From assembly GCF_003334385.1 (NCBI RefSeq), contig NZ_QOWN01000002.1: 64,000 bases of DNA; one strand, written 5' to 3'. The DNA comes from Escherichia coli. Its GTDB lineage: Bacteria; Pseudomonadota; Gammaproteobacteria; Enterobacterales; Enterobacteriaceae. The position numbers were made by a program. Shown here piece after piece: positions 27,001 through 36,000 of the stretch (positions are counted from its first letter, which is position 1; every line of letters starts with the position of its first letter).

Positions 27001-30000
27001 ACGCAGGCTGATTTTGTTGTGATAACCCGCTGTTATGAAAAAATGCTCGCCGCCAGTGAGAACAACAAAGAGATTTCGCTGATCGAACATGCGCAGTTGG
27101 ATCACGCTTTCCATCTCGCCATTTGTCAGGCTTCTCACAATCAGGTGCTGGTGTTTACGCTGCAATCATTGACCGATCTGATGTTTAATTCAGTGTTTGC
27201 CAGCGTAAATAATCTCTACCATCGACCACAGCAAAAAAAGCAGATCGATCGCCAGCATGCGCGGATCTACAACGCGGTGTTGCAGCGGCTGCCGCACGTC
27301 GCCCAGCGCGCAGCACGCGATCATGTGCGGACCGTGAAAAAGAATCTCCACGATATCGAGCTGGAAGGCCACCATTTGATTCGCTCGGCGGTGCCGCTGG
27401 AGATGAACCTGAGTTAGCTGGTATTAAATCTGCTTTTCATACAATCGGTAACGCTTGTACGGCTCCGCCCCAATGCGTTCCAGCATGTTATTCATGCCTG
27501 TATTGGTTTCGAGGATCCATGACATCTCCAGCGCATCGATCTTCCGGCGGGCAAACGGATCGCGTAAGGCTTCAATCAATAACAGCGCAATCACCGGGCC
27601 GATGCGGCTGAACTGATACTCGTCGCGCACGCCCATCAGCGGTACTCGCGCAGTTCGCACACCGCTGACTTTCAAACGCCACAGCAATTTTGCCCAGCCG
27701 AAGGGAAAGAGCGATCCGTTCAGATCGGCAATCGCCTCGTTGATGTTCGGCAAGCCGACAATAAACGCGCAGGGTGCAGAATCAATCTCAGCGATATAGA
27801 TCATATCGTCCGGCACCAGATATTTAAGTTGATCGCCCATGGTCGCGAATTCATGTTCGGTAAACGGCACAAATCCCCAGTTGTGCTGCCAGCCAGAGTT
27901 GAAAATCTCACGCAGGATCTGCATCTCTTCGGCAAACCGCTGACGATTGATGCAGCGAATGGTCACCTTTTTGCGCACCTGATCCATCAGTTTTTTTAGC
28001 GCCGGAGAGAAAGTGAGATCGGTTCGCTGCATCCACCACGCCAGTAAATCAATGCCTTTGTGATAACCCAGTTGTTCAATATGCGCGGCATACCACGGTT
28101 TGCCGTGTGGCATCATCGCACAGGGTGGTGTGTCAAAACCTTCAATCAGTAATCCGCTTTCCTGATTGATATTCAGGCTGAAAGGACCGCTGATCTTACT
28201 TGCACCTTGTGACTTCAACCACGCTTCCGCTGCGCCAAACAACGCGGCAAAAACCTGCGGATCATCAATGGCGTCAATCATGCCGAAATGACCGGTATCT
28301 TTGCCGTAACGCTCGCGGTGCAAGGTATCTATTTGCGCGGTAATACGCCCAACTATCTGCCCCGCTTTTTTTGCCACCCACGCCTGCCAGATGATATGGT
28401 CCGTCCCCGGATTTTTCGCAGACAAATGCTCGTTGCGTTCAATGAATAAAGGGGGTATCCAGTTTGGATCGTCGGGATAAAGTGATGACGGAAAAGCGAT
28501 AAATGCCTTAAGGTCATTTTTATTAATTACTTTTTCAATTTTAATCATCAGCAGATCGCATTCCATAGTTCTGTTCTGTGGGTAACAAATAATTAACGGT
28601 GACAAACAGGTTGCAACAGCAACGAACGGCACCTTAATAATCAACCCAATGAATACAAACGACGAATAAATAGTATTTATTAATGATTACGATAAGGTCA
28701 GAGACTACACAGAAGCGCCACAATGCCTTTTGTCGATTTAAGGCGACCGGACAAGGCTTCTTCTTAATATATTCATAAATTAAATATCATTCACAATAAA
28801 AACAAAAAAACTCAAACTCATTATTTAAATCAATGTTCATTTTCACACTGATGAAAATACTATCTCATTTATCTTTTATGCCTATATAATCCACCGCATT
28901 ATTGTCATTTTATTTTGGATATCCAATTTTTTCGTGGTGTATATGTCTAATAAAATCTTTACGCATTCCCTACCTATGCGCTATGCCGATTTTCCAACGC
29001 TTGTTGATGCTTTGGACTACGCCGCTCTGAGTAGCGCCGGAATGAATTTTTATGACAGACGTTGCCAACTTGAAGATCAACTGGAATATCAGACGTTAAA
29101 AGCACGTGCCGAAGCTGGTGCGAAGCGGTTGTTATCGCTGAACCTGAAAAAAGGCGATCGCGTGGCACTGATTGCCGAAACAAGTAGCGAGTTCGTAGAG
29201 GCTTTTTTTGCCTGCCAGTATGCCGGCTTAGTCGCCGTCCCGTTGGCGATTCCAATGGGCGTTGGTCAGCGGGATTCCTGGAGCGCCAAATTGCAGGGTT
29301 TACTGGCAAGTTGCCAGCCCGCAGCCATTATCACTGGTGATGAGTGGTTGCCACTGGTCAATGCCGCGACGCATGACAACCCCGAATTACATGTTTTAAG
29401 CCACGCCTGGTTTAAGGCATTACCGGAAGCCGATGTTGCGCTCCAGCGTCCAGTTCCGAACGATATCGCCTACCTCCAGTACACCTCCGGCAGCACCCGT
29501 TTTCCCCGTGGCGTCATTATCACCCATCGCGAAGTGATGGCTAATCTACGTGCTATAAGCCACGACGGCATTAAATTACGCCCTGGCGACCGCTGCGTCT
29601 CCTGGCTGCCTTTCTACCATGATATGGGACTGGTCGGCTTTCTCCTGACCCCCGTCGCCACGCAGCTTTCAGTAGATTATTTGCGCACTCAGGATTTTGC
29701 CATGCGTCCTCTGCAATGGCTTAAATTGATCAGTAAAAATCGCGGCACCGTTTCCGTTGCGCCGCCGTTTGGCTATGAATTGTGCCAGCGCCGCGTGAAT
29801 GAAAAAGATCTCGCTGAACTGGATCTTTCCTGCTGGCGCGTCGCTGGTATTGGTGCAGAACCCATCTCCGCAGAACAACTCCATCAATTCGCTGAATGTT
29901 TCCGTCAGGTTAACTTTGACAATAAAACTTTCATGCCGTGCTACGGACTGGCAGAAAATGCGCTGGCTGTCAGCTTCTCTGATGAAGCCTCCGGGGTTGT

Positions 30001-33000: not shown

Positions 33001-36000
33001 CAGGCATTTGCTACTCTGAAGCAGTAATGTGAGCCCGCCGTGGTGTTGCGCCACGGCGGGTTTAATGTTGTCTGTCATACCAATACACCAGGCTCAACGC
33101 CACCAGCACAAACGCTATCGGTAAACCGAGCGCGGTAACAGGTGCGCTCAACGCAAATAGCAATCCCAGATTGACCATGATTTGATAGCTGATCCAGGTG
33201 AGTAAGCCAACGATGACACCTACAGCGAGACGGCTACCCATCCCTGGCGAGCGCGGGGCGCTAAAGGTAAACGGCACAGCCAGCAAAATCATCGCCAGGG
33301 TCAGGATGGGTTGCCCCAGTTTTTCCCACAGTGCAAGGCGGTATTCGCTGCTGGGTTGCCCGGTTTCCTGCAAATAATGGATGTAATGATTAAGCTGACG
33401 GACAGAAAAAGTATTGCCCGGCATTGATAACTCTTCAAGATCCATACTGGTGAAGGCCGATTGCCAGGCAAGATTATCTAATGTTTCCAGCGTTTCTTTG
33501 CCATTCAGCCATTTTTTATGATTCACACCATGCAGGATCCACGTTTTGTCGTCTTCAATGGTGGCACTGCGTGCATAAATGTAGGATTCGAGCGAGAGAT
33601 CGTCGCGATAATGAAAAATCTCCACGCCCACCGGCTGGCCCTGCTCGTTCAGCGATTTCACCGTCACAAATTCATTACCACGCCTGGCCCACAGCATATT
33701 GCCGGTAATGTCATCGTCCTCCCCCAACGCGGTGGCGGTCGATTTGATTTGCAACGCCTGTTGCTGTAATGGCGACGCTACCCACTCATCTATCGCGCCT
33801 AACGAAACAGTCCACAATATCCCTGCAACCAGCGCCACCAGTGCAATACGGAAGATAGAAAACCCCATGCTGCGAATGGCGGTAAGCTCACTGTTTTTCG
33901 ATAACTGCCCCAGGCCGACAATCCCTCCCAATAAGGCGATAAATGGCGAAAGTTCGACCAGTGTGCGCGGTAAGGTCATTAGCACCACCAGCACCGCCTG
34001 AGTCCAGCGATAACCGCCCGGGCTGACATCATCCAGTTCGTTAATCAGGTTGAAGGTGGTAAAAAGCGGCAGCAATAGCCCTGCGGCGGCGGCAAAACCG
34101 AGAAAGAGATGACGGATTAAATAGCGGCTGAAAACATTCATCGGGAAAATTTCTGCAGCAAAGAGAAGTCGCGTGCGACCAGCATCAGCAGGCCCATTAG
34201 CATGAGTCCGGGTACTAACCACAAACCAGGAATGAGGGGAATCGCGCCGTTAGCCACCAGCGTACGGCAGACGTCACCGCCATAAAAAATGGCAATAAAC
34301 AGCAACGTCAGTGGCAATAACGTTGAAAATCGCCCTTGCCGCGGTTTTACCCGACTTAATGAAATGGCCAGCAGCGCCATCAACAATGCGGTCAGGCCAC
34401 GGCTTTGCCGCCATTGCAGTTCGGCATGATCGGCTGGAAAGACGGAGCGCGCCAGCTCCGTGACCGATTTCGCTTTGCGTTTGACGTTAGGGCTTTGATC
34501 CAGCGGATTCAGATGTAATTGCAGATTACGGTAGATCTGTTCGTTGTCATCACGCCCCTGATGATCGATAAGATAGGCAGTGCCGTTGTGCAACATAACG
34601 GTCGGTTTCTCGGGTGATGGGTCAACCACATCAACCGAACGGGCGCGGAAAATGCGGGTTCGATTGGCAGTAGAAGTATAAATCAGCGCGTCAGTCAGGC
34701 GATTATTATCCTGATCAACCGTCTGCGAAAGGATCATTCGTCCGTTATCGTTAGTGTTAAATTTCTTTGCCCGCAACTGGCGAACATCCAGCTCCGACTG
34801 CGACTGCTGCTCCAGTTGATAAATCTGCGCATAAGCCCACGGACGACCATACATCGACAGAAGGGTGACAAAAATACTTAGCGGTATCGCCAGATAAAGA
34901 ACGGCTTTGTACAAGCGTCCCGGACTGCCCCCCGCCGCAGAGATAGCGGTAATTTCCGAGTCGGTATACATCTGCCCTAGCGTCACGCCAACTGACACAT
35001 ACAGACCAACAGGTAACAACATCTCCAGTGCAATCAGTACTTTGTAGAAAACGATATCCAGCACAACATCAAGAGCTAATGTCCCATTTGCCGCTTCGGT
35101 CAGATAACGCTGTGCGGAGTAGCTGGCGAAAATAAAGATCAGAAAACCGACGATAATCAGCACCAGACGGCGCGTACCACGCATGATGTAGTGTTCAACC
35201 AGCTTCATCTCACTAACGCCCTCAATCCTTTGAGTTTTTTATTCATTGATCAGTTTCTGCGCCAACGCAATGACATGATCTACCTCTTCCGGCGTCAGGC
35301 TGCCGTCCTTTGCCCACTGAATTTGCCCGGCTTTATTCAGCACCAGAATGGTTGAACTCTGCTCCGGCAAGCGCCAGGCAACGCGTCCCTGTCCATTGCC
35401 GTCAATAACGAATTGCGCCCACGGATAGCGGCGTTTATTTTTTTCGATTTTGCCAACAACAAAATAGCCAGTACCAAAGATGGCATCATCGGTGTTCACA
35501 ATGGTGGTGGGCTGAAAACGATCCTGCGGAAAGTTTGCCGCTTCAACCGCTTTAATTAACAGTGAGTTCTTTTTCTTCGCCGACTTACGCCCGGCGATAT
35601 ACTGAATAATGCGGACTTTTCCCGCTAATTGTGTGCTGTTCCACTTTTGGTAGTGAATTTCGTCGTCGCTATTCAGAAGCAGCTCGCCGCCTTCCTGGAT
35701 ATAAACAGGGGTAACCGTTTTGCCAGTGACGAAATTGTGTGCCTGCACACCCGGGGCTAAGAGCATGATAATCAACGCAATAATCAAACGAGATGACATC
35801 ATTGCTCCGGCTATAGCGGAAAACGCGAAATCAGCAGCTCTAAGCGCTGACGAATATCGCTATCCAGCGCCACCGGTGCATCATACGACTGGCGGTTTTC
35901 CATATCATCCGCCACCATGTCGTCGTGTTTATCTCCCATCAGGCCATTAATGGCGGCGAGGAAGCGGGATATCTGTAACGCCTCTTTATTTTCAGGATCA

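What the first reader, a model, noticed from the sequence alone, without database searches (positions are those of the whole stretch)
28934..33027. Translationally coupled four-gene operon: FAAL - reductase - ACP - Spt-like synthase
The stop and start codons overlap (ATGA at 30661-30664, TAATG at 31853-31857) and a strong bidirectional terminator follows at 33034-33063. Motifs were read directly: the adenylation loop TSGSTRFPRG, the ACP serine in DLGLESI and the PLP lysine in GTFSKS. The adenylation loop has Arg where the usual Gly and Lys sit, which may indicate unusual substrate handling.
Basis: partly seen in the sequence, partly recalled or inferred. Interest (0 to 1): 0.8.

Follow-up and report, generated by a model that had tools for sequence, protein, structure and literature searches.

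The report
Known E. coli sphingolipid operon, reductase broken

Summary
The window is E. coli chromosome (glc operon, glcC, yghO, then the cluster). The four genes are aasR (a fatty acyl-AMP ligase, FAAL), cerR/epi (reductase), acpR (acyl carrier protein) and spt (serine palmitoyltransferase).

- **Gene identities are right.** RefSeq already annotates them this way, and 4205 of 5426 complete E. coli genomes carry the cluster.
- **The proteins are already characterised.** The ligase is 100% identical to crystal structure 3PBK (EcFAAL). The 10.5 kb locus differs from BL21(DE3) ECD_02850-02854 by 9 bases. Co-expressing the BL21 ligase, ACP and Spt gives a product that co-migrates with 3-oxo-sphinganine on TLC (PMC9386255). 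EcFAAL loads its own ACP in vitro (PMC8460268).
The reductase carries an in-frame TAG at 31021-31023 (W121*), directly before the catalytic YAKSK. It is the only difference in 4401 bases from the closest complete genome. No complete genome has it, but draft assemblies do, and some carry an independent TGA at the same codon.
- **Other corrections.** Only two of three gene junctions overlap. The hairpin is strong, but "bidirectional" is weak. The "unusual" adenylation loop lies within normal FAAL variation.

Verdict: already known, low interest.

The parts
27424..28566 (-). yghO, the bCerS/Aca-type N-acyltransferase (ceramide synthase) candidate, transcribed divergently from the operon
   Evidence: RefSeq 'protein YghO'. 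100% identical in protein to BL21(DE3) ECD_02850. PMC9386255 names that gene as aca, 44% identical to Caulobacter CC_1154. No Pfam or NCBIfam match.
28567..28942 (.). AT-rich divergent intergenic region, the presumed promoter region for yghO and the operon
   Evidence: GC falls to 0.42-0.43 in the 1-kb windows that cover this spacer, against about 0.52 in the genes. The consensus scan finds no sigma-70-like site on the + strand here.
28943..30664 (+). aasR (EcFAAL): fatty acyl-AMP ligase and acyl-AcpR synthetase. A3/P-loop TSGSTRFPRG at 29483-29512.
   Evidence: NCBIfam NF006624 scores 877.9 against a cutoff of 600. The 573-aa product matches PDB 3PBK residue for residue apart from the start Met. 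3 aa differ from BL21 ECD_02851. The start-codon choice rests.
30661..31575 (+). cerR/epi: an NDUFA9-like extended SDR reductase, a pseudogene in this genome. Rossmann GATGFIG at 30685-30705, catalytic YAKSK at 31024-31038.
   Evidence: In-frame stop at codon 121. Otherwise 100% identical to BL21 ECD_02852 (WP_001077166.1). The closest solved structures are NDUFA9-type SDRs, and Y122/K126 align with their YxxxK.
31021..31023 (+). Premature TAG stop (W121*, TGG to TAG at base 31022)
   Evidence: The only mismatch in 4401 nt against strain SCU-104. Found in 0 of 2516 matching complete genomes. The exact 120-aa product is on 99 contigs of public draft assemblies. A TGA allele at the same codon occurs in other loci and in one complete genome.
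31607..31855 (+). acpR: dedicated acyl carrier protein. Phosphopantetheine attachment Ser39 in DLGLESI (31706-31726).
   Evidence: PF00550 PP-binding. Weak ACP matches in NCBIfam. 100% identical to BL21 ECD_02853, which was shown to carry beta-alanine, i.e. 4'-phosphopantetheine.
31855..33027 (+). spt: serine palmitoyltransferase. PLP Lys244 in GTFSKS (32572-32589).
   Evidence: NCBIfam equivalog NF047599 scores 597.9 against a cutoff of 500, and the protein falls below the cutoffs for BioF, Kbl, ALAS and CqsA. S. paucimobilis SPT 2JG2 matches at E = 4e-112, with GTFSKS and the LLRCS arginine aligned. 1 aa differs from BL21 ECD_02854.
33030..33064 (.). GC-rich hairpin between the convergent spt and lptG2 genes; a likely terminator for the + strand operon
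   Evidence: + strand: -35.8 kcal/mol, z = -7.2, partial U tract. - strand: -21.9 kcal/mol, no U tract.
33062..34141 (-). lptG2: an LptG paralogue and candidate sphingolipid exporter permease
   Evidence: TIGR04408 scores 308 against a cutoff of 240. Identical to BL21. In Caulobacter, LptF2/G2 encoded in the sphingolipid locus bind LptB and are implicated in sphingolipid transport.
34138..35208 (-). lptF2: an LptF paralogue and partner of lptG2
   Evidence: TIGR04407 scores 318 against a cutoff of 230.
36635..37984 (-). yghQ: MOP-family flippase candidate. Its link to the system is inferred only.
   Evidence: Weak MOP flippase match. The Caulobacter locus also encodes a putative flippase, CC_1166. 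Homology between the two was not tested.

Best explanation
This is the E. coli copy of the proteobacterial sphingolipid (dihydroceramide) biosynthesis cluster: aasR-cerR-acpR-spt, with yghO (cerS/aca) divergent upstream and lptG2-lptF2 convergent downstream.

Mechanism:
1. The FAAL-type ligase AasR adenylates a free C12-C16 fatty acid and transfers it to the phosphopantetheine arm of the dedicated carrier protein AcpR, not to CoA.
2. The PLP enzyme Spt (Lys244) condenses L-serine with acyl-AcpR, with decarboxylation, to give 3-oxo-sphinganine.
3. YghO N-acylates the long-chain base.
4. CerR reduces the 3-keto group to give (dihydro)ceramide.
5. LptF2/G2, together with the housekeeping LptB, probably extract the lipid from the inner membrane for delivery to the outer membrane.

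Steps 1 and 2 are shown experimentally for identical or near-identical E. coli proteins. Steps 3 to 5 are inferred from Caulobacter homologues.

In this genome cerR is inactivated by W121*. Neither the 120-aa N-terminal fragment nor the downstream 169-aa ORF contains the catalytic Tyr122 and Lys126. If the operon is expressed at all, the pathway should therefore stop at 3-oxo intermediates (3-oxo-sphinganine or oxidised ceramide). The untranslated 552 nt may also lower acpR-spt expression through polarity; that is inference.
For: - **Annotation and distribution.** RefSeq names the genes fatty acyl-AMP ligase, NAD-dependent epimerase, ACP and spt. 4205 of 5426 complete E. coli genomes carry the cluster.
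- **Family assignment.** Spt passes the NCBIfam serine palmitoyltransferase equivalog cutoff, and the ligase passes the FAAL subfamily cutoff.
- **Ligase.** It is 100% identical to 3PBK, which was crystallised with lauroyl- and myristoyl-adenylate. EcFAAL loads holo-EcACP in vitro.
- **Match to the characterised locus.** The locus differs from BL21(DE3) by 9 nt in 10.5 kb, and the ACP is identical.
- **Published BL21 results (PMC9386255).** AcpREc carries phosphopantetheine. Co-expression of AasREc, AcpREc and SPTEc forms a product that co-migrates with 3-oxo-sphinganine on TLC. SPTEc prefers palmitoyl-AcpR over palmitoyl-CoA. Identity to the Caulobacter proteins is 34-44%.
- **Reductase stop.**; the catalytic motif alignment is.
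- **Transport.** LptF2/G2 are implicated in Caulobacter. A Roseomonas plasmid also places two LptF/G paralogues close to an adjacent FAAL-SDR pair.
Against: - I found no report of native sphingolipid production by any E. coli strain in the papers searched.
- In PMC9386255, BL21(DE3) with empty vectors showed no 3-oxo-sphinganine-like lipid although it carries the intact chromosomal cluster. The cluster may be silent in laboratory culture.
- The upstream region is AT-rich and has no consensus sigma-70 site on the + strand.
- Many E. coli lineages carry deletions or truncations of cluster genes: about 22% of complete genomes have no match, and truncated ligase variants are common.
- The order of the YghO and CerR steps is disputed in the literature.
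- The roles of YghO, CerR and LptF2/G2 have not been tested with the E. coli proteins.
Confidence: 0.93

Rival explanations
1. The cluster is a cryptic, decaying remnant in E. coli. The genes are recognisable and the enzymes work when over-expressed, but the chromosomal locus is not expressed or selected for. The W121* allele is one of many neutral loss-of-function lesions.
For: - W121* arose at least twice, as TAG and as TGA.
- Some loci that carry it have further lesions: yghO is split in L006 and the ligase is split in L009.
- Truncated ligase variants form large sequence clusters of 1291, 871 and 464 members, against 14649 for the full-length cluster.
- 1221 of 5426 complete genomes show no match.
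- BL21(DE3) with empty vectors makes no detectable product.
Against: - About 75% of complete genomes keep at least 80% of the 4.4 kb at 95-100% identity.
- GC content is typical of E. coli.
- Orthologues at 75-82% identity are kept in Citrobacter, Hafnia, Shimwellia, Serratia and Pseudocitrobacter, with the active-site loop invariant in 118 of 120. That argues for purifying selection.
- The nonsense alleles are rare: 0 and 1 of 2516 complete genomes.
- Member counts are distinct sequences, not genomes, so the extent of decay was not properly quantified.
Confidence: 0.3
2. The alpha-oxoamine synthase is not a serine palmitoyltransferase. Instead it would be a BioF/Kbl-like enzyme, a CqsA-like autoinducer synthase, or a cysteate acyltransferase, so the product would be a biotin precursor, an alpha-hydroxyketone signal or a sulfonolipid.
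For: All of these enzymes share the fold and the PLP-lysine motif. BioF, Kbl, CqsA and ALAS models match with E-values from 1e-99 to 1e-64. Cysteate-C-fatty acyltransferase 28EH matches at 2e-59.
Against: - Every one of those models scores below its curated cutoff: BioF 331.7 against 426, Kbl 295 against 460, CqsA 220 against 428. The SPT equivalog is above its cutoff, 597.9 against 500.
- Solved SPTs are by far the best structural relatives, at 4e-112.
- The BL21 enzyme, which differs by one residue, incorporated L-[14C]serine into a product that co-migrates with 3-oxo-sphinganine on TLC.
Confidence: 0.02
3. The TAG at 31021-31023 is a sequencing or assembly error, and the reductase is intact in the real organism.
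For: It is a single-base difference from the nearest complete genome, and it is absent from all 2516 matching complete genomes.
Against: The exact 120-aa product occurs on 99 contigs from independent NCBI, ENA and Logan assemblies. One 6363-nt locus (L007, seen in several samples) is identical to the window. Independent assemblies are unlikely to share the same error.
Confidence: 0.04

Closest known systems
E. coli BL21(DE3) ECD_02850-ECD_02854: yghO/aca, aasR, epi, acpR, spt (Padilla-Gomez et al. 2022, PMC9386255)
   Same: Same chromosomal locus and gene order. 9 nt differ in 10.5 kb. AcpR, YghO, LptG2 and LptF2 are identical in protein, Spt differs by 1 aa and AasR by 3 aa. The 3-oxo-sphinganine pathway was demonstrated by co-expression and by enzyme assay.
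   Different: The reductase has W121* here and is intact in BL21. Spt has G309 here and D309 in BL21.
EcFAAL, PDB 3PBK, and the EcFAAL-EcACP pair of Patil et al. 2021 (PMC8460268)
   Same: The 573-aa product matches it residue for residue apart from the start Met. It is a FAAL with the family-specific insertion, was crystallised with lauroyl- and myristoyl-adenylate, and loads its own ACP while rejecting CoA.
   Different: None at the protein level. The FAAL papers read here (PMC8460268, PMC11837247) never mention sphingolipids, and PMC9386255 never cites the structure.
Caulobacter crescentus ceramide cluster CC_1162-CC_1165 plus CC_1154 (spt, acpR, cerR, aasR, cerS), with LptF2/G2 (CC_1156/1155)
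   Same: The same five enzyme families are clustered: AasR 42%, CerR 34% and CerS/YghO 44% identity. Spt prefers acyl-AcpR. LptF/G paralogues and a putative flippase lie in the locus.
   Different: E. coli has no cpg-type headgroup genes for ceramide phosphoglycerate in the region examined, and no lptC2. The gene order is mirrored. Native product and physiological role are established in Caulobacter but not in E. coli.
Sphingomonas paucimobilis and S. wittichii SPT (PDB 2JG2, 2X8U)
   Same: Soluble homodimeric alpha-oxoamine synthase. The PLP lysine in GTFSKS and the carboxylate-binding Arg in LLRCS are conserved. E = 4e-112.
   Different: In Sphingomonadaceae aasR lies far from acpR-spt in the genome. 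The E. coli enzyme scores best against the beta-proteobacterial SPT model rather than the alpha one.
Bacteroidetes and eukaryotic SPT
   Same: The same reaction: serine plus an acyl thioester gives 3-oxo-sphinganine.
   Different: They use acyl-CoA directly and have no dedicated ligase and ACP pair. The CFB-type model scores below its cutoff here, 338.6 against 640.

Membership tests
Proteobacterial (Rhodobacteria-type) ceramide synthesis cluster aasR-cerR-acpR-spt plus cerS | Spt: an alpha-oxoamine synthase with the PLP lysine that scores as serine palmitoyltransferase rather than BioF, Kbl or ALAS | tested here: met
   NF047599 scores 597.9 against a cutoff of 500, and all sister families fall below their cutoffs. 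GTFSKS aligns with 2JG2.
Proteobacterial (Rhodobacteria-type) ceramide synthesis cluster aasR-cerR-acpR-spt plus cerS | A dedicated acpR immediately upstream of spt, in one operon | tested here: met
   The ACP stop and spt start overlap (TAATG, 31853-31857). PP-binding domain. Identical to the AcpREc shown to carry phosphopantetheine.
Proteobacterial (Rhodobacteria-type) ceramide synthesis cluster aasR-cerR-acpR-spt plus cerS | An AasR-type acyl-ACP synthetase (FAAL) in the neighbourhood | tested here: met
   It is the first gene of the operon. NF006624 scores 877.9 against a cutoff of 600. 3 aa differ from AasREc.
Proteobacterial (Rhodobacteria-type) ceramide synthesis cluster aasR-cerR-acpR-spt plus cerS | An intact CerR/Epi reductase with the Rossmann motif and catalytic YxxxK | tested here: not met
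   The gene is present and orthologous, but it is truncated by TAG at codon 121, before Y122 and K126. The locus belongs to the family, but this copy lacks a functional reductase.
Proteobacterial (Rhodobacteria-type) ceramide synthesis cluster aasR-cerR-acpR-spt plus cerS | A bCerS/Aca N-acyltransferase homologue | tested here: met
   YghO is identical to ECD_02850, which is reported as 44% identical (E = 1e-107) to CC_1154. I did not align it to CC_1154 directly.
Proteobacterial (Rhodobacteria-type) ceramide synthesis cluster aasR-cerR-acpR-spt plus cerS | Formation of 3-oxo-sphinganine, and of ceramide | not testable with these tools
   3-oxo-sphinganine is published for the BL21 proteins (TLC co-migration). 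I found no report of native ceramide from E. coli.
Fatty acyl-AMP ligase (FAAL) | Sequence membership, and the structural features that block CoA use: the FAAL-specific insertion and helix | tested here: met
   100% identical to EcFAAL 3PBK, the reference protein in which these features were defined.
   The loop reads TSGSTRFPRG here. Other FAALs read SSGSTRHPTG (Roseomonas), TSGSTRNPAG (M. intracellulare), TSGSTSKPRG (Streptomyces), TSGSTSDPKG (Ralstonia) and TSGSTGDPKG (7R7G). The Arg aligns with FadD32 Arg192, which binds the gamma-phosphate of ATP. The loop is invariant in 118 of 120 enterobacterial orthologues.
BioF / Kbl / ALAS / CqsA alpha-oxoamine synthases | A score above the curated family cutoff | tested here: not met
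   BioF 331.7 against 426.45, Kbl 295.4 against 460, ALAS 217.9 against 338.55, CqsA-type 220.3 against 428.
Bidirectional intrinsic terminator | A stable GC-rich hairpin with a U tract downstream on both strands | tested here: inconclusive
   The hairpin is strong (z = -7.2). There is a partial U tract on the + strand and none on the - strand.

The most novel reading that the evidence does not exclude
Loss of the ketoreductase is recurrent and adaptive in some E. coli lineages, not neutral decay. W121* arose independently as TAG and as TGA. Strains carrying it would keep aasR-acpR-spt-yghO and make 3-oxo-sphinganine or oxidised ceramide instead of ceramide. That would give natural variants with a different outer-membrane or host-signalling lipid.
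Probability: 0.05. Interest if true: 0.5.

Novelty: already known. Interest (0 to 1): 0.15.

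Why it matters
The locus shows that about three quarters of sequenced E. coli, including BL21(DE3) and Nissle 1917, carry a complete bacterial sphingolipid pathway that K-12 lacks. This is already in the literature and in RefSeq annotation.

What this re-examination adds is small:
- This genome carries a rare reductase-null allele, which also exists in public draft assemblies and has an independent TGA twin at the same codon.
- In the papers I read, the FAAL structural literature (3PBK, EcFAAL-EcACP) and the sphingolipid literature (AasR-AcpR) describe the same protein without citing each other.
- Whether E. coli ever makes sphingolipids natively is unreported in the papers I could search. 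Natural cerR-null strains could be useful comparison strains for that question.

Tried and rejected
- **Family-wide ligase search.** I replaced it with a tblastn against plasmids and translated seven diverse FAAL loci.
- **PDB search with the loop peptide.** This was meant to display FadD32 residues, but the five printed alignments went to 3PBK and gramicidin synthase. The FadD32 correspondence therefore rests on ungapped coordinates plus the text of the paper.
- **The search for homologous proteins on the ligase.** It returned only orthologues at 75% identity or more. That was useful for loop invariance and the start codon, but not for family diversity.
- **yghR/yghS/yghT as a ceramide kinase.** I considered whether these P-loop kinases could correspond to Caulobacter CpgB. 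I rejected it: CpgB is a GGDG-motif lipid kinase related to the sphingosine/ceramide kinase family.
- **YghO.** It has no Pfam or NCBIfam match, so its assignment rests on published BLAST identity to CC_1154.
- **Rfam.** No RNA family was found in 20000-42000.
- **E. coli 'plasmid' hit.** NZ_MG591698.1 carries the glc operon and the same chromosomal context, so it is not evidence of mobility.
- **Scans not run.** I did not run the genome contigs or metagenome scans, because the verdict did not depend on them.

Full report
**What is in the sequence.** The window is E. coli chromosome. Around the finding lie glcDEFGB, glcC and yghO on one side. On the other side are two LptG/LptF paralogues, a YtfJ-family gene, a hypothetical gene, yghQ, yghR, yghS, yghT and pitB. 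A 4.4 kb query covering the finding matches 4205 of 5426 complete E. coli genomes, 4068 of them over at least 80% of its length, nearly all at 95-100% identity. RefSeq annotates the four genes as fatty acyl-AMP ligase, NAD-dependent epimerase/dehydratase family protein, acyl carrier protein and "spt: serine palmitoyltransferase".

**Checking the observation.**
- The ATGA overlap at 30661-30664 and the TAATG overlap at 31853-31857 are present.
- So are TSGSTRFPRG (29483-29512), DLGLESI (31706-31726) and GTFSKS (32572-32589).
- The hairpin at 33030-33064 is real and strong: -35.8 kcal/mol, z = -7.2 against shuffles.

Four points need correction.
- *The reductase ORF is interrupted.* ORF listing returns a 120-aa ORF (30661-31023) and a 169-aa ORF (31066-31575) in the same frame. 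Translation shows a single in-frame TAG at codon 121.
- *The reductase-to-ACP junction is a 31-nt gap, not an overlap*.
- *The "bidirectional" label is weak.* The + strand has only a partial U tract after the hairpin, and the - strand has none. The label therefore rests only on the hairpin's position between two convergent genes.
- *The ligase start is probably ATG 28943, not GTG 28934.* The N-terminus M-S-x-x-x-x-T-H-S-L-P-M-R-Y-A-D-F is conserved in Citrobacter, Hafnia, Shimwellia and Serratia orthologues. The crystallised protein also begins there. RefSeq currently uses ATG 28976.

**The premature stop.** Against the closest complete genome (strain SCU-104), the 4401-nt region has one mismatch: A at 31022 where SCU-104 has G, which turns TGG (Trp121) into TAG. 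The stop lies directly before YAKSK (31024-31038). Tyr122 and Lys126 align with the catalytic YxxxK of NDUFA9-like extended SDRs. Neither the 120-aa fragment, which contains only the Rossmann motif, nor the downstream 169-aa ORF from Met136 contains these residues. The gene is therefore non-functional as written.

The allele is rare but looks real.
- A 61-mer centred on the TAG has no perfect match among 2516 matching complete genomes.
- The exact 120-aa product is recorded on 99 contigs from NCBI, ENA and Logan assemblies. The exact full-length protein is on at least 1000 contigs, the counting cap.
- One 6363-nt Logan locus (L007) is identical to the window.
- Two of the six retrieved loci carry TGA rather than TAG at the same codon. 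That allele occurs in one complete genome, OkiPb01684 from bovine faeces. The Trp codon has therefore been hit at least twice independently.
- Two of the loci have further lesions: yghO is split in L006 and the ligase is split in L009.

**What the genes are.**
- *Ligase.* It passes the NCBIfam FAAL subfamily model, 877.9 bits against a cutoff of 600. Over all 573 residues it is 100% identical to PDB 3PBK, "EcFAAL", which was crystallised with lauroyl- and myristoyl-adenylate.
- *Synthase.* It passes the serine palmitoyltransferase equivalog NF047599, 597.9 bits against a cutoff of 500. It falls below the curated cutoffs of BioF, Kbl, ALAS and the CqsA-type synthase. Its best solved relatives are the Sphingomonas SPTs (E = 4e-112), with the PLP lysine motif and the substrate-carboxylate arginine aligned.
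- *Whole locus.* From 27424 to 37984 it differs from E. coli BL21(DE3) by 9 bases in 10,561. AcpR, YghO, LptG2, LptF2, the YtfJ-like protein and the hypothetical protein are identical in protein. Spt differs at one residue and the ligase at three. The reductase differs only by W121*.

**What is already published.** Padilla-Gomez et al. 2022 (PMC9386255) studied exactly these BL21(DE3) genes: ECD_02851 aasR, ECD_02852 epi, ECD_02853 acpR, ECD_02854 spt and ECD_02850 yghO/aca.
- AcpREc incorporates beta-alanine, so it carries 4'-phosphopantetheine.
- AasREc acylates its own AcpR but not the Caulobacter one.
- SPTEc prefers palmitoyl-AcpR over palmitoyl-CoA, measured with L-[14C]serine.
- Their Table S2 gives 42%, 34% and 44% identity to Caulobacter AasR, Epi/CerR and Aca/CerS.

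Separately, Patil et al. 2021 (PMC8460268) showed that EcFAAL transfers C12 acyl chains to its own holo-ACP in vitro. All three are therefore largely done. The FAAL papers I read do not mention sphingolipids, and PMC9386255 does not cite 3PBK.

**The adenylation loop.** This does not hold, for three reasons.
- The loop belongs to an enzyme that is active and structurally characterised (3PBK).
- In M. smegmatis FadD32 the P-loop is Thr187-Arg192, and Arg192 makes bidentate hydrogen bonds to the gamma-phosphate of ATP (PMC4667280). The ungapped match of the loop peptide to chain 5D6J (query 4-33 to chain 179-208) places the E. coli TSGSTR on residues 187-192. The Arg is thus an ATP contact, not a fatty-acid contact.
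- Other FAAL loci show variation at both positions. Roseomonas has SSGSTRHPTG, M. intracellulare TSGSTRNPAG, Streptomyces TSGSTSKPRG, Ralstonia TSGSTSDPKG, Priestia TSGSTSSPKG, Nostoc SSGSTSFPKG and Picosynechococcus TSGSTGDPKG.

Within Enterobacterales, QYTSGSTRFPRG is invariant in 118 of 120 orthologues.

**Neighbours.** The two convergent genes downstream pass the LptG and LptF equivalog cutoffs, but by position they are additional copies rather than the housekeeping genes. A 2026 preprint (10.64898/2026.04.12.717747) shows that LptF2/G2, encoded in the Caulobacter sphingolipid locus, form a complex, bind the housekeeping LptB and are implicated in sphingolipid export. It states that such paralogues occur in many sphingolipid loci of alpha- and gammaproteobacteria. 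The Caulobacter locus also contains a putative flippase, and yghQ here is a weak MOP-flippase match. A Roseomonas plasmid places two LptF/G paralogues a few genes from an adjacent FAAL-SDR pair. The neighbours are therefore also accounted for by published work, although nothing has been tested in E. coli.

**Mechanism and what remains inferred.** Two steps are shown for identical or near-identical proteins: fatty acid to acyl-AMP to acyl-AcpR by AasR, and then serine plus acyl-AcpR to 3-oxo-sphinganine by Spt. Three steps are inferred from Caulobacter: N-acylation by YghO, keto-reduction by CerR, and export by LptB2F2G2. The order of the acylation and reduction steps is debated. In this genome the reductase is null, so the predicted end products are 3-oxo intermediates.

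Whether the chromosomal operon is expressed at all is unknown.
- BL21(DE3) with empty vectors produced no 3-oxo-sphinganine-like lipid.
- The 376-nt upstream spacer is AT-rich, with no consensus + strand promoter.
- I found no paper reporting native E. coli sphingolipids.

**Decay or selection.** Some evidence points to decay. About 22% of complete genomes have no match, and truncated ligase variants form large sequence clusters. W121* is recurrent. Other evidence points to purifying selection. Three quarters of genomes retain the cluster. Orthologues are conserved in several enterobacterial genera. The nonsense alleles are very rare among complete genomes. I did not quantify intactness across genomes, so the question remains open.

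**Verdict.** But the cluster is already annotated, structurally solved in part, and biochemically characterised. The one feature specific to this window, the reductase stop codon, was missed, and the one speculative claim, about the loop, is not supported. Novelty: already known. Interest: low.

Noticed in passing
window 33062-35208 (- strand): A second LptG/LptF permease pair lies convergent to spt, and both genes score above the LptG and LptF equivalog cutoffs. Recent Caulobacter work implicates such paralogues in sphingolipid export together with the housekeeping LptB. This has not been tested in E. coli.
   Followed up: partly
window 35239-37984 (- strand): A YtfJ-family protein (35239-35799), a 274-aa hypothetical protein with no NCBIfam match (35811-36635) and the MOP-flippase-like YghQ (36635-37984) sit in one co-directional block with lptF2/G2. 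Their link to sphingolipid transport or modification is unknown.
   Followed up: no
L005 and L006 (locus coordinates 3361-3363), and complete genome NZ_AP042519.1: An independent TGA nonsense allele occurs at the same Trp121 codon of the reductase, separate from the TAG allele of the window.
   Followed up: partly
L006 (yghO called as 264 + 116 aa) and L009 (ligase called as 146 + 375 aa): Some public loci that carry the W121* reductase have a second cluster gene split, which suggests continuing decay in those lineages.
   Followed up: no
Proteins P0039, P0042, P0111 and P0045: Truncated ligase variants are common. There are C-terminal truncations at residues 497 and 467 and N-terminal truncations. 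They form 90%-identity clusters of 1291, 464, 871 and 86 member sequences, on contigs long enough that they are not simply cut by contig ends.
   Followed up: partly
window 28567-28942: The divergent yghO-aasR spacer is strongly AT-rich, and the consensus scan finds no sigma-70-like site on the + strand. This fits a silenced or specially regulated operon.
   Followed up: no
L011 (Roseomonas marmotae plasmid p1318-4), locus 1126-9183: This alphaproteobacterial plasmid carries two LptF/LptG-family permeases, a 383-aa gene annotated 'dATP pyrophosphohydrolase', nucleotidyltransferases, and an adjacent FAAL-SDR pair whose ligase is 63% identical over the 114-aa probe segment. It may be a sphingolipid-type locus on a plasmid. 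No spt was seen within the 14 kb fetched.
   Followed up: no
L018 (NZ_MG591698.1, E. coli PN43 'plasmid'): A 354-kb record labelled as a plasmid carries the glc operon and the whole cluster in chromosomal order. It is probably a chromosomal fragment or a mis-assigned replicon rather than a mobile copy.
   Followed up: no
Literature (PMC8460268, PMC11837247 and PMC9386255): The FAAL structural papers I read and the sphingolipid AasR/AcpR paper describe the same E. coli protein pair, but within those texts they do not refer to each other.
   Followed up: partly
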